From a virus (taxonomy: Duplodnaviria; Heunggongvirae; Uroviricota; Caudoviricetes): a stretch of 15,635 bases of DNA. The position numbers were made by a program. The DNA lies in the IMG/VR virus record IMGVR_UViG_2526164662_000033; one strand, given 5' to 3'. Of this stretch, positions 1 through 3,000 are shown one piece after another. The stretch's first letter is position 1; each line of letters starts with the position of its first letter.

Positions 1-3000
1 CAACGGAGCACCGTATTGACGCTTATTTATTGGTGAGTACTACGTTCCATGGCAGGAGTTCATCAACTCGGTTGGAAGGCCATTCCGGCAGTACGCTCAG
101 GATATGGCGCAGATACGCTTCCGGATCGATACCGTTCAGACGGCAGGTGCCGATCAGCCCGTACAACAGTGCTCCACGCTCGCCGCCGTGATCGCTGCCA
201 AAGAACATAAAGTTTTTCTTTCCGAGACAGACTGCACGAAGCGCTCTTTCCGCAGCATTATTATCCGCCTCCCGCCAGACCGTCATCACTGTAATAACAG
301 AGGGCATCCCACTGATTCAGTACATAGCTGAACGCTTCGCCCAGTCTGGATTTTTTCGACAGCGTACCATTCTTCTCCACCATCCATTCATGCAGCGACG
401 TCAGTAACACTTTGCTCGCTGCTGCCTGACGGCAAGACGCTCTGACTCCGGTAATCCCCGTATTTCATCCTCGATGGCGTACAGTTCACTGATTCGCTTC
501 AGGGCTTCTTCTGCCGTCGCACTTTTGCTGCTGATGTATACATCGTGGATTTTTCGCCGGGCATGGGCCCAGCACGCAACTTCTGTCAGTGCACCACCTT
601 CACGCTCTGCACTGAACAACCTGTCGTAACCTGTGAACGCATCCGCCTGCAGGATACCCCGGAAGGGGCGGAGGTGTTGCTCCGGGTGTTTCCCCTGCCG
701 GTTCGGCGAGTACGCGAACCAGACCGCTGGAGGAGATGACGAACCCACATTGCGATCATCCCGGACATACGTCCAGATACGCCCTGTTTTCGCCTTTTTC
801 TGACCCGGTGCCAGTACCTTTACCGGTGTGTCATCAGTGTGAACCTTGCGGGTGTTCATTACATAACGGTACAGGGCATCATTCACCGGTGTCATTAACT
901 GGCAGCACGCGTCAACCCAGTTGGAGAGTAAGGCCCGGCTCAGTTCGACACCCTGGCGGGCAAAGATTTCACTCTGACGATACAGTGGCAGATGTTCGCA
1001 GTATTTCCCGTTAACACGCGGGCAAGTAATCCGGGGCCCGCGATACCACGCTCTATCGGGCGGGACGGCGCCGGTGCTTCAACAATACAGTCACATTTTG
1101 TACAGGCTTTTTTACCCGTTCTGTGCGGATCACTTTCAGGGCACTGCTCACCAGTTCCAGCTGTTCAGCGCTGACTTCCCCCAGATAATCCAGCTCACCG
1201 CCACACTCCGGGCAACAGCTTTCTTCTGGCTCCAGGCGGTGTATTTCACGGGGAAGGTGTGCCGGTAACGGACGACGATGGCGCGACTGTCGCAACTGGC
1301 GGGGAACCTGAGGATCGTCTTCCCGCCCACTGTAACGATCGCTGTCCTGTTCACGTTGTTTCAGCAGAGCCTCAGCCAGTTCAACTTCACGACGCAGTTT
1401 TTCAGAACGGGTACCGAACAGCATCCGGCGCAGTTTTTCTATCTGAGCCCGCAGATGTTCTATTTCCCGTTCATCTTCTCCGATCTTTTCTTCGGCACGT
1501 GTCAGTGCAGAGCGCAGGAAGGCTTCCGTCTCTTCAACCAGACTCAGTTGCTGGTCTTCTGACGGAGGGCTTCAGCCTGCTCAGAGAGCAACCTTTCCAG
1601 CTCTGCGATGCGAATGAGGTATTTCTGACTCATGACCGTTTTTATAATGCGGTCAGGAGTTTTTTACAACATTGTCAGTGAGTTACGGCTGGATGTTTTT
1701 GGCTGACGCCAGTCCAGCTTATCGAGGAGCATTGCCAGTTGCGAGCGGGTAATGGATACCTTGCCGTCACGTACCGCAGGCCAGATAAACTGGCCTTCCT
1801 CCAGGCGTTTGGTGAACAGGCACAGACCATCAGCATCAGCCCAAAGAATTTTGACGGTGTCACCCCGTCGGCCACGGAAGATAAACAGGCGACCGGAGAA
1901 GGGATTATCATTCAGCACATGTTGTACCTGTTCTCCCAGTCCGTTGAAGGATTTACGCATATCGGTAACGCCGGCAACGAGCCAGATACGGGTACCTGAT
2001 GGGAGTGAGATCATCTTCCCCTCCCGGTCAGTTCACGGATCAACACTGTGAGCAGCTCTGGCGATGGATTTTCCAGCGTCATGTTACCGTGACGGAATTC
2101 CACCTTGCAGGAACTGGCACTGACTCTGGTCTGAGTGGAAGTGGATAAAGACGGCGCAATGGCCGCCACAGGTTCTTTCTGCTCATCCGGCGTTATTTCT
2201 ACAGGTAATAATTCAACGCCAGTGTCAGAAGAGGTCGTTACCGGAAGACGCCGCGAAACACGCCCTTCGTTCTGCCAGAGCCTGAGCCATTTGAAAATAA
2301 CATTATCATTGACGCCATTTTCACGTGCAATCTGTGCAACACAAGCTCCAGGTTGTGATGCCAGTTCCACCATACGAAGTTTGAATTCATTCGAATAGTT
2401 TTTACGAGGTTCTTTTCGCCAGTCCTGTAATTCCATACTTAGATGTCCGTCTATATCAGATGGGCGTCTAAGTTACCAATTCTCGTCTGATGGCTACATA
2501 CGGCGGTCAGTTTACGCTTACGGTTTTTTATTATCAGGAGGCAGAATGTCTGCTTTGTATGAACGCTCACAGCTGACGCAGGTGATGATTTCATCTGCCC
2601 CGGCGACTGCTGAAACTATGGATAAGGCGGAATATCTGCGCCTGGACTGCACCATCAAGGAAGTCCAGTTCACCGCCGGTCAGAAACAGGATATTGATGT
2701 GACCACGCTCTGCTCCACAGAGCAGGAGAACATCAACGGTCTGGGGGCGTCGTCCGAGATTTCCATGTCGGGTAATTTTTATCTGAATCAGGCCCAGAAC
2801 GCCCTGCGTGATGCCTATGACAATGACACGGTGTATGCGTTTAAGGTGCAGTTTCCGTCCGGTAAGGGCTTTAAGTTCCTGGCGGAAGTGCGTCAGCACA
2901 CCTGGTCATCCGGTACCAACGGCGTGGTGGCAGCAACGTTTTCACTGCGTATGAAAGGCAAACCGGTGTCCTTTGTGGTACCGCTGGCGTTTGTGAAAAA

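What the first reader, a model, noticed from the sequence alone, without database searches (positions are those of the whole stretch)
1..2529. A second, different IS66-family element beside the major tail gene has a tnpC decayed by about five frameshifts
Copy 1 is not a duplicate of copy 2: the termini share only the first 8 bp (GTAAGCGT) and the Orf1/Orf2 proteins are clearly diverged. Its tnpA and tnpB are intact, but tnpC homology jumps between frames near 1558, 1110 (in a T6/A6 homopolymer), 1010, 405 and 280. The element ends 24 bp upstream of the major tail gene start codon with the SD intact, and in antisense orientation to the tail operon, so it could be polar on late transcription from upstream. 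It is probably an old, immobile insertion.
Basis: partly seen in the sequence, partly recalled or inferred. Interest (0 to 1): 0.45.

Follow-up and report, generated by a model that had tools for sequence, protein, structure and literature searches.

The report
ISEc23 copy with draft-assembly frameshift errors
The stretch is an ordinary, well-catalogued E. coli insertion sequence (ISEc23) that recently landed in front of a prophage tail gene, and its five "frameshifts" are almost certainly base-calling errors of a draft genome assembly, because a second contig of the same assembly covers the same DNA without any of them.

Summary
Window 1-2521 (minus strand) is an IS66-family element with intact tnpA and tnpB. 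Its tnpC is broken at five places (w271, 416, 1004, 1108, 1557). It ends 24 bp before the major-tail ATG and is clearly different from copy 2 (ISEc22). The reading "old, decayed, immobile" does not hold.

- **Identity:** the element is ISEc23, 99.6% identical to thousands of intact 2,532-bp copies.
- **Nature of the breaks:** all five are ±1 changes in the length of a single-base run. Repairing them restores the 537-aa transposase with one amino-acid change.
- **Source:** the window is a whole contig (AIGU01000019.1) of the E. coli DEC10F draft, and it starts 8 bp inside the IS.
- **Decisive comparison:** an 11,304-bp DEC10F contig (its tnpC fragment is a deposited DEC10F protein with a nearby accession) holds the same IS at the same site, with TSD GGTTTTTT. 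It overlaps window 1-2812. It has none of the five indels but has three different ones of its own.
- **Enrichment:** indels are about 26 times denser in the IS than in the other 13 kb of the contig.
- **Age:** the insertion is absent from 688 complete genomes that carry this prophage region, so it is recent.

Verdict: a known IS with an assembly artefact. Low interest.

The parts
1..2521 (-). ISEc23 (IS66 family). These are bases 9-2532 of the 2,532-bp element; the terminal 8 bp GTAAGCGT are cut off by the contig start.
   Evidence: 99.6% identity to intact copies annotated 'IS66-like element ISEc23'. The full element with both ends is in L005 8481-11013. Intact copies are 2,532 bp.
2498..2521 (-). 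Terminal inverted repeat at the tnpA end. It reads GTAAGCGTAAACTGACCGCCGTAT on the minus strand and matches the other end at about 20 of 24 positions.
   Evidence: Read directly. The far-end repeat is only partly present in the window (w1-16).
2011..2436 (-). tnpA, 141 aa, intact and identical to WP_000422741.1.
1664..2014 (-). tnpB, 116 aa, intact, with one amino-acid difference (H42R, from w1890 C instead of T).
23..1633 (-). tnpC (DDE transposase, 537 aa when intact), broken into fragments by five 1-bp indels.
   Evidence: Repair gives 537 aa with only E52G.
1557..1558 (.). Indel 1: TT where intact copies have TTT (about codon 27).
   Evidence: Absent from the other DEC10F contig. The variant 31-mer has 0 matches in IMG/VR.
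1108..1113 (.). Indel 2: T6 where intact copies have T7 (about codon 177).
   Evidence: This is the only one of the five also seen elsewhere: in L017 and L023, and presumably in the six other complete-genome records that tie with L023's hit H56 on alignment span and bit score (those six were not read). In L023 the gene is annotated 'frameshifted'.
1004..1006 (.). Indel 3: T3 where intact copies have T4 (about codon 211).
416..416 (.). Indel 4: a single T where intact copies have TT (about codon 407).
271..273 (.). Indel 5: CCC where intact copies have CC (about codon 456).
2522..2529 (.). Right copy of the 8-bp target-site duplication GGTTTTTT. The left copy lies outside the window, at L005 8473-8480.
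   Evidence: Prophages without the IS have one copy (L001 around 6000). It is the T-tract of a terminator-like hairpin, CCCGCCGCGTGCGGG-TTTTTT.
2535..3262 (+). SD (AGGAGG, 2535-2540) and the major tail subunit gene (2546-3262, 238 aa), intact.
12401..14854 (+). Copy 2: ISEc22 (IS66 family), intact, inserted in gene J with TSD GATTTTTT (12393-12400 and 14855-14862).
   Evidence: The insertion is shared with O26:H11 complete genomes.

Best explanation
Window 1-2521 is a copy of the known insertion sequence ISEc23 (IS66 family: tnpA, tnpB, tnpC, imperfect terminal repeats that begin GTAAGCG, 8-bp target duplication). It transposed recently, in the lineage of E. coli strain DEC10F, into the T-tract of the terminator-like hairpin between the tail-completion gene (gp17) and the major tail gene of a lambdoid prophage, and duplicated GGTTTTTT. 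The prophage was already defective, because J is split by ISEc22. The five frame breaks in tnpC are not biological decay. They are single-base run-length errors in the consensus of a draft assembly, and they are concentrated in the repeated IS at a contig end. The real element in the strain is most likely an intact ISEc23 able to move. Shown: the identity of the element, the site and TSD, the strain-specific presence, the position and nature of each indel, and the disagreement between two DEC10F contigs. Inferred: that the two contigs describe one physical locus, and that the cause is low-coverage, homopolymer-prone (454-type) consensus in a repeat.
For: - **Source.** The window is the entire contig AIGU01000019.1 (15,635 bp) of GCA_000250095.2. 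Its fragment proteins are deposited as E. coli DEC10F, EHW98850.1 and EHW98851.1.
- **Second contig.** The 11,304-bp IMG/VR contig L005 is also DEC10F: its tnpC fragment is EHW98907.1. It carries the same IS at the same site with both TSD copies. It overlaps window 1-2812.
- **Disagreement in the overlap.** The two contigs share the diagnostic bases w62 A and w605 C, yet they differ at 8 indel sites. Five are private to the window and three are private to L005 (one of those in tnpA). At every one of these sites the frame-breaking allele is the one that departs from intact ISEc23.
- **Type of change.** All five window indels are ±1 changes in single-base runs. Repairing them gives a 537-aa TnpC with a single amino-acid change.
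- **Indel to substitution ratio.** It is 5:4 in the IS against 1:24 in the other 13,114 bp (p = 0.0024). Indel density is 26 times higher in the IS (p = 5.7e-4). If indels are one tenth of natural mutations, 8 or more indels among the 10 differences inside the IS has p = 3.7e-7.
- **Population check.** None of the listed best matches in 5,426 complete E. coli genomes scores high enough to share more than one of the five. The one read (L023) shares only the T7-to-T6 site, and the six that tie with it presumably do too.
- **Other errors in the same assembly.** The unique parts of the DEC10F contigs also carry scattered run-length indels: w8317 in K, and L005 2451 and 8439.
[quoted passage not shown] The same laboratory in the same year used 454 Titanium with Celera 6.0 for other strains (PMC3491183).
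Against: - No reads were available, so no indel was checked directly.
- The sequencing platform of DEC10F itself could not be confirmed, because the announcement paper is not held.
- The other multi-copy IS in the contig (ISEc22) shows no indel at all, so 'repeats are error-prone' is not a uniform rule in this assembly.
- The IS part of the second contig could in principle have been built from reads of other ISEc23 copies in the genome. Its lack of the five indels would then say less about this locus.
- The T7-to-T6 change also occurs in other genomes and could be a real slippage variant.
Confidence: 0.87

Rival explanations
1. The frameshifts are real. This particular ISEc23 copy in DEC10F has been inactivated by five slippage mutations, and the window contig reports the locus correctly. 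The other contig's IS sequence was built from reads of other, intact ISEc23 copies.
For: The indels are in the deposited sequence. All lie in single-base runs, where polymerase slippage also happens. T7-to-T6 is seen in other genomes and annotated as a frameshift. Draft assemblers do mix reads of repeat copies.
Against: Five inactivating indels with only two private substitutions is far from the natural mutation spectrum (p = 1.8e-4 at one indel per ten mutations). The other contig has its own three private indels at a similar rate, which shows that the assembly itself produces such changes. The insertion is recent: it is strain-specific and has a perfect TSD. Four of the five indels appear in none of the listed best matches, out of about 9,000 ISEc23-like places in complete genomes.
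Confidence: 0.08
2. DEC10F carries two paralogous copies of the gp17-ISEc23-V junction, from a prophage segment duplicated or spread by recombination after the insertion. Each copy is decaying on its own, perhaps in a mismatch-repair-deficient background that favours ±1 run-length changes and T-to-C transitions.
For: The two contigs also differ at two bases in the major tail gene (w2719, w2755). O26 genomes hold several near-identical lambdoid tail modules. Both private substitutions in the window's IS are T-to-C.
Against: It needs an extra duplication event plus eight independent indels in 5 kb, while the flanking unique DNA has about 0.1-0.3 indels per kb. No other genome shows even one such junction. 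Overlapping unmerged contigs at repeat edges are routine in draft assemblies.
Confidence: 0.03
3. The insertion is old and fixed, and has decayed over a long time.
For: Multiple frame breaks are what an old pseudogene would show.
Against: It is 99.6% identical to active copies. There are no substitution-derived stops and no deletions. The terminal repeat is intact and the TSD perfect. It is absent from all 688 complete genomes that carry at least 80% of this prophage region, including O26:H11 strains 99.8% identical in the flanks.
Confidence: 0.02

Closest known systems
ISEc23 (IS66 family), as annotated in RefSeq E. coli genomes (TnpC WP_000080195.1, TnpB WP_000624722.1, TnpA WP_000422741.1)
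   Same: 99.6% DNA identity over the whole element. Same gene order tnpA-tnpB-tnpC, same ends, 8-bp TSD. TnpA is identical, TnpB differs by 1 aa, and TnpC differs by 1 aa once the five indels are undone.
   Different: Five 1-bp run-length indels in tnpC in this record, which I judge to be artefacts. Two lineage-marking substitutions (w62, w605) and two private ones (w1480, w1890). The outer 8 bp are missing because the contig starts there.
ISEc22 (IS66 family), copy 2 in this window (12401-14854)
   Same: Same family architecture, same terminal GTAAGCGT, 8-bp TSD, and a T-rich target (GATTTTTT against GGTTTTTT).
   Different: A different element: 64-68% DNA identity where alignable, TnpA 41% and TnpB 65% identical. 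Opposite orientation. An older insertion, shared with O26:H11 complete genomes. No indels.
Frameshifted ISEc23 copies in other assemblies (NZ_CP030337 pseudogene; JBQMUY010000001 copy, L017)
   Same: Single-base run-length changes break tnpC. The T7-to-T6 site is shared.
   Different: NZ_CP030337 has only that one change. L017 has four further private deletions, all in G or C runs, including in tnpB. That pattern also looks like assembly error rather than shared ancestry.

Membership tests
IS66 family / ISEc23 | Three-gene organisation tnpA, tnpB, tnpC on one strand, with tnpA and tnpB overlapping | tested here: met
   tnpA 2011-2436, tnpB 1664-2014 (4-bp overlap) and tnpC 23-1633, all on the minus strand.
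IS66 family / ISEc23 | TnpC with IS66-type leucine zipper, zinc finger and DDE domains; TnpB of the IS66 type; HTH TnpA | tested here: met
   Precomputed Pfam hits on the called fragments: PF13007, PF13005, PF03050, PF13817; PF05717; PF01527.
IS66 family / ISEc23 | Imperfect terminal inverted repeats that begin 5'-GTAAGCG | tested here: met
   The end at w2521 reads GTAAGCGTAAACTGACC on the minus strand. The other end, GTAAGCGTCAACGGAGC, is seen in L005 and L001, and the window lacks its first 8 bp.
IS66 family / ISEc23 | 8-bp target-site duplication | tested here: met
   GGTTTTTT on both sides in L005. Clean 8-bp TSDs in six ISEc23 loci. Only the right copy is in the window.
IS66 family / ISEc23 | Near-identity to the named element (ISfinder treats copies of at least 95% DNA identity as the same IS; recalled, not looked up here) | tested here: met
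   99.6% identity to copies that RefSeq annotates as ISEc23, length 2,532 bp. The ISfinder reference entry itself was not available.
Genuine IS pseudogene (decayed element) | Inactivating changes are reproducible in independent sequence of the same locus | tested here: not met
   The second DEC10F contig over the same IS and junction has none of the five indels.
Genuine IS pseudogene (decayed element) | Mutation spectrum and age fit neutral decay: substitutions outnumber indels, and the insertion is shared by relatives | tested here: not met
   Indel to substitution ratio 5:4 against 1:24 in the flanks. The insertion was found in DEC10F only.
Genuine IS pseudogene (decayed element) | Read-level support for each indel | not testable with these tools
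   No access to raw reads.

The most novel reading that the evidence does not exclude
The indels are real, and DEC10F, perhaps a mismatch-repair-deficient lineage, has hit a freshly inserted ISEc23, or two paralogous copies of it, with an unusual burst of homopolymer slippage. That would be rapid, indel-only inactivation of a young IS.
Probability: 0.05. Interest if true: 0.25.

Novelty: already known. Interest (0 to 1): 0.06.

Why it matters
It matters mainly as a caution. Multi-frameshift "pseudogenes" in repeats at the ends of draft contigs should not be read as evolutionary decay. Here two contigs of one assembly contradict each other at every indel. The one real biological fact is a strain-specific ISEc23 insertion into the terminator T-tract in front of the major tail gene of a prophage that was already defective. 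That is routine IS traffic in O26-group E. coli and changes no open question.

Tried and rejected
- **Same insertion in complete E. coli genomes.** None found. The three best hits carry ISEc23 at other positions of the same prophage module. Hit H4, which ran 36 bp past the IS end, turned out to be an unrelated insertion in ISEc12.
- **Junction 40-mer in other collections.** 0 hits in metagenome contigs and 0 in GTDB genome contigs. One hit in IMG/VR, which became the key locus L005.
- **Indel-bearing 31-mer around w1557 in IMG/VR.** 0 hits.
- **Exact look-up of the major tail protein, to find sister loci.** The protein is very common (1,009 blocks), and none of the places shown has the IS.
- **Is the K-gene frameshift (w8317 +C) shared by other assemblies that encode the same 224-aa product?** No. 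Two have the gene at the very start of the contig, so the upstream site is not covered; one with upstream sequence (L019) has the wild-type run; the fourth (L020) matched neither exact pattern and was not resolved.
- **DEC collection announcement, for the sequencing platform.** Not held. 'DEC10F' and 'AIGU00000000' give no useful paper. Only circumstantial statements were found.
- **A target consensus for ISEc23.** Considered from six TSDs. Five of the six begin with G, but there is no clear motif, so it was dropped.

Full report
**1. What is in the window**

ORF listing and direct reading show three minus-strand genes in window 1-2521. They are tnpA (2011-2436, 141 aa), tnpB (1664-2014, 116 aa) and a fragmented tnpC (23-1633). 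The element ends with CGCTTAC at 2521. Then come 24 bp (GGTTTTTTATTATCAGGAGGCAGA), which hold the SD, and the ATG of a 238-aa major tail gene at 2546. The rest of the window is a lambdoid tail module: chaperones, tape measure, M, L, K, I and J. J is split by a second IS66-family element at 12401-14854.

**2. Identity**

Megablast against 5,426 complete E. coli genomes finds thousands of copies at 99% identity or more. RefSeq annotates them as 'IS66-like element ISEc23' with TnpA, TnpB and a 537-aa transposase. Intact copies are 2,532 bp with clean 8-bp target duplications. Pfam hits on the called fragments are the IS66 set. Copy 2 is ISEc22. It is 64-68% identical in DNA where alignable, with TnpA 41% and TnpB 65% identical, and the termini share only GTAAGCGT.

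**3. The frameshifts**

Alignment to intact copies gives exactly five 1-bp indels and four substitutions in 2,522 bp.

| Site | Window | Intact copies |
|---|---|---|
| w271 | CCC | CC |
| w416 | T | TT |
| w1004 | T3 | T4 |
| w1108 | T6 | T7 |
| w1557 | TT | TTT |

Each is a ±1 change in a single-base run. Undoing them restores a 537-aa TnpC that differs from WP_000080195.1 by one residue (E52G). TnpB differs by H42R and TnpA is identical. There are no substitution-derived stops and no deletions.

**4. Where the sequence comes from**

An exact look-up of the 164-aa tnpC fragment finds a single contig: AIGU01000019.1, 15,635 bp, of GCA_000250095.2. The window is therefore that whole contig. 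The fragments are deposited as proteins of E. coli DEC10F, EHW98850.1 and EHW98851.1. DEC10D is AIGS in the same accession series (PMC5592225). The contig starts 8 bp inside the IS, exactly after the GTAAGCGT that IS66-family ends share. That is a typical repeat-edge contig break.

**5. The decisive comparison**

The junction 40-mer occurs once in IMG/VR, on an 11,304-bp contig, L005. This contig runs from the head genes through gp17, a terminator-like hairpin, the complete IS and the same right junction, into the first 267 bp of the major tail gene. GGTTTTTT lies on both sides of the IS. Its tnpC fragment is EHW98907.1, 'putative transposase [Escherichia coli DEC10F]', on a contig of 11,304 bp. 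Given that and the nearby protein accessions, I take it to belong to the same assembly as the window, though its contig accession was not retrieved.

So two DEC10F contigs overlap over window 1-2812. They share the lineage markers w62 A and w605 C. They disagree at eight indel sites and four substitutions:
- Five indels are private to the window.
- Three indels are private to L005: +T at w523, +T at w1077, and -T at w2318 in tnpA.
- The substitutions are at w1480, w1890, w2719 and w2755.

At every indel site the frame-breaking allele is the one that departs from intact ISEc23. Two consensus sequences of what is most simply one physical locus cannot both be right. The pattern shows that the assembly process generates such indels at about 1-2 per kb in this repeat.

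**6. Supporting statistics and population data**

- Outside the IS the contig has 1 indel and 24 substitutions in 13,114 bp, measured against an O26:H11 genome that is 99.8% identical.
- Indel density is 26 times higher in the IS (Fisher p = 5.7e-4). The indel to substitution ratio differs as well, 5:4 against 1:24 (p = 0.0024).
- If indels are one tenth of spontaneous mutations (the one-in-ten figure is my recollection of E. coli mutation-accumulation work), 8 or more indels among the 10 differences inside the IS has p = 3.7e-7.
- None of the listed best matches in the complete genomes scores high enough to share more than one of the five indels. The one I read (L023) shares only T7-to-T6 and is annotated 'frameshifted'; six others tie with it on alignment span and bit score and presumably share the same site.
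- An unrelated single-contig genome (L017) also has T6, plus four private deletions in G or C runs, including in tnpB. This again looks like assembly error.
- The unique parts of the DEC10F contigs carry occasional run-length indels too: w8317 in K, and L005 2451 and 8439.
- The same laboratory's 2012 genomes were made with 454 Titanium 3-kb paired ends and Celera 6.0 (PMC3491183). I recall, but could not confirm, that the DEC collection was made the same way.

**7. Age and effect of the insertion**

The flanks match 688 complete genomes over at least 80% of their length, with the best O26:H11 matches 99.8% identical. The best matches begin exactly at w2522 and lack the IS. No complete genome, metagenome contig or GTDB representative has the junction. 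With the perfect TSD, this makes the insertion recent and strain-specific, not old.

The target is the T-tract of the hairpin CCCGCCGCGTGCGGG-TTTTTT between gp17 and the major tail gene. Because the TSD repeats the T-tract, the hairpin plus T6 survives on the upstream side, and the SD and ATG survive downstream.

Whether the antisense 2.5-kb insert is polar on late transcription cannot be tested here. Q-antiterminated late transcription tolerates terminators (established lambda biology). The prophage cannot make a tail anyway, because J is split by ISEc22, an older insertion shared with O26:H11 strains.

**8. Verdict**

- **Observation:** confirmed.
- **Interpretation:** partly supported. The identity, the distinctness from copy 2, the position and the orientation are right. 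'Decayed, old, immobile' is not.
- **Best explanation (0.87):** a recent ISEc23 insertion whose tnpC frame breaks are draft-assembly consensus errors.
- **Rivals:** real inactivation of this copy (0.08); two paralogous decaying loci (0.03); old decay (0.02).
- **Novelty:** already known.
- **Interest:** 0.06.

Noticed in passing
window 8317 (gene K / C40 peptidase, 8289-9033): An extra C (GGCCGC instead of GGCGC) frameshifts the tail gene K at about codon 10. It is the only indel in the 13 kb outside the ISEc23. It is absent from the loci that cover the site and gave an exact match (L001, L003, L019); L020 matched neither variant exactly. It is probably another consensus error.
   Followed up: partly
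window 12393-14862: ISEc22 is inserted in the host-specificity gene J with TSD GATTTTTT. The insertion is shared at 99.8% identity with many O26:H11 complete genomes, so it is older than the ISEc23 insertion. Both IS66-family insertions in the window sit in G-purine-T6 targets (GGTTTTTT and GATTTTTT).
   Followed up: partly
window 2719-2850 (major tail gene): A cluster of five substitutions relative to the orthologous O26:H11 prophage. At the two sites covered by the other DEC10F contig (2719, 2755), that contig carries the O26-type bases. This is either a recombination patch from another prophage's tail gene or a mixed-repeat consensus.
   Followed up: partly
L005 8460-8480; window 2522-2529: The IS landed in the T-tract of a terminator-like hairpin (CCCGCCGCGTGCGGG + T6) between gp17 and the major tail gene. 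The TSD leaves the hairpin and T-tract intact upstream of the IS.
   Followed up: partly
hits H1-H3 (L001 6052-8583 for H1): Other E. coli genomes carry ISEc23 at three other positions in the same head-tail junction of related prophages. In H1 it sits about 18 bp into the major tail gene, after codon 6, with TSD GCTCACAG. In H2 it lies about 0.8 kb upstream. In H3 it is inside the major tail gene. This hints at recurrent hits in this module.
   Followed up: partly
L017 1905-4424 (JBQMUY010000001.1) and L023 (NZ_CP030337.1): The T7 run in tnpC (w1108) is T6 in both of these unrelated assemblies, and probably in six more complete-genome records that tie with L023's hit but were not read. L017 also has four private 1-bp deletions in G or C runs, which split tnpB and tnpC. 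The T7 run is a hotspot for slippage or for base-calling error.
   Followed up: partly
L003 21532-24147: In O26:H11 strain FWSEC0001 a third IS66-family element (ISCro1) splits the tail-fibre gene just downstream of the region the window covers. IS66-family elements pile up in this prophage's tail genes.
   Followed up: no
L005 2451 and 8439: The other DEC10F contig has run-length indels in unique DNA, compared with L003: A2 instead of A3 inside the capsid-region match, and T6 instead of T7 in the gp17-V spacer.
   Followed up: no
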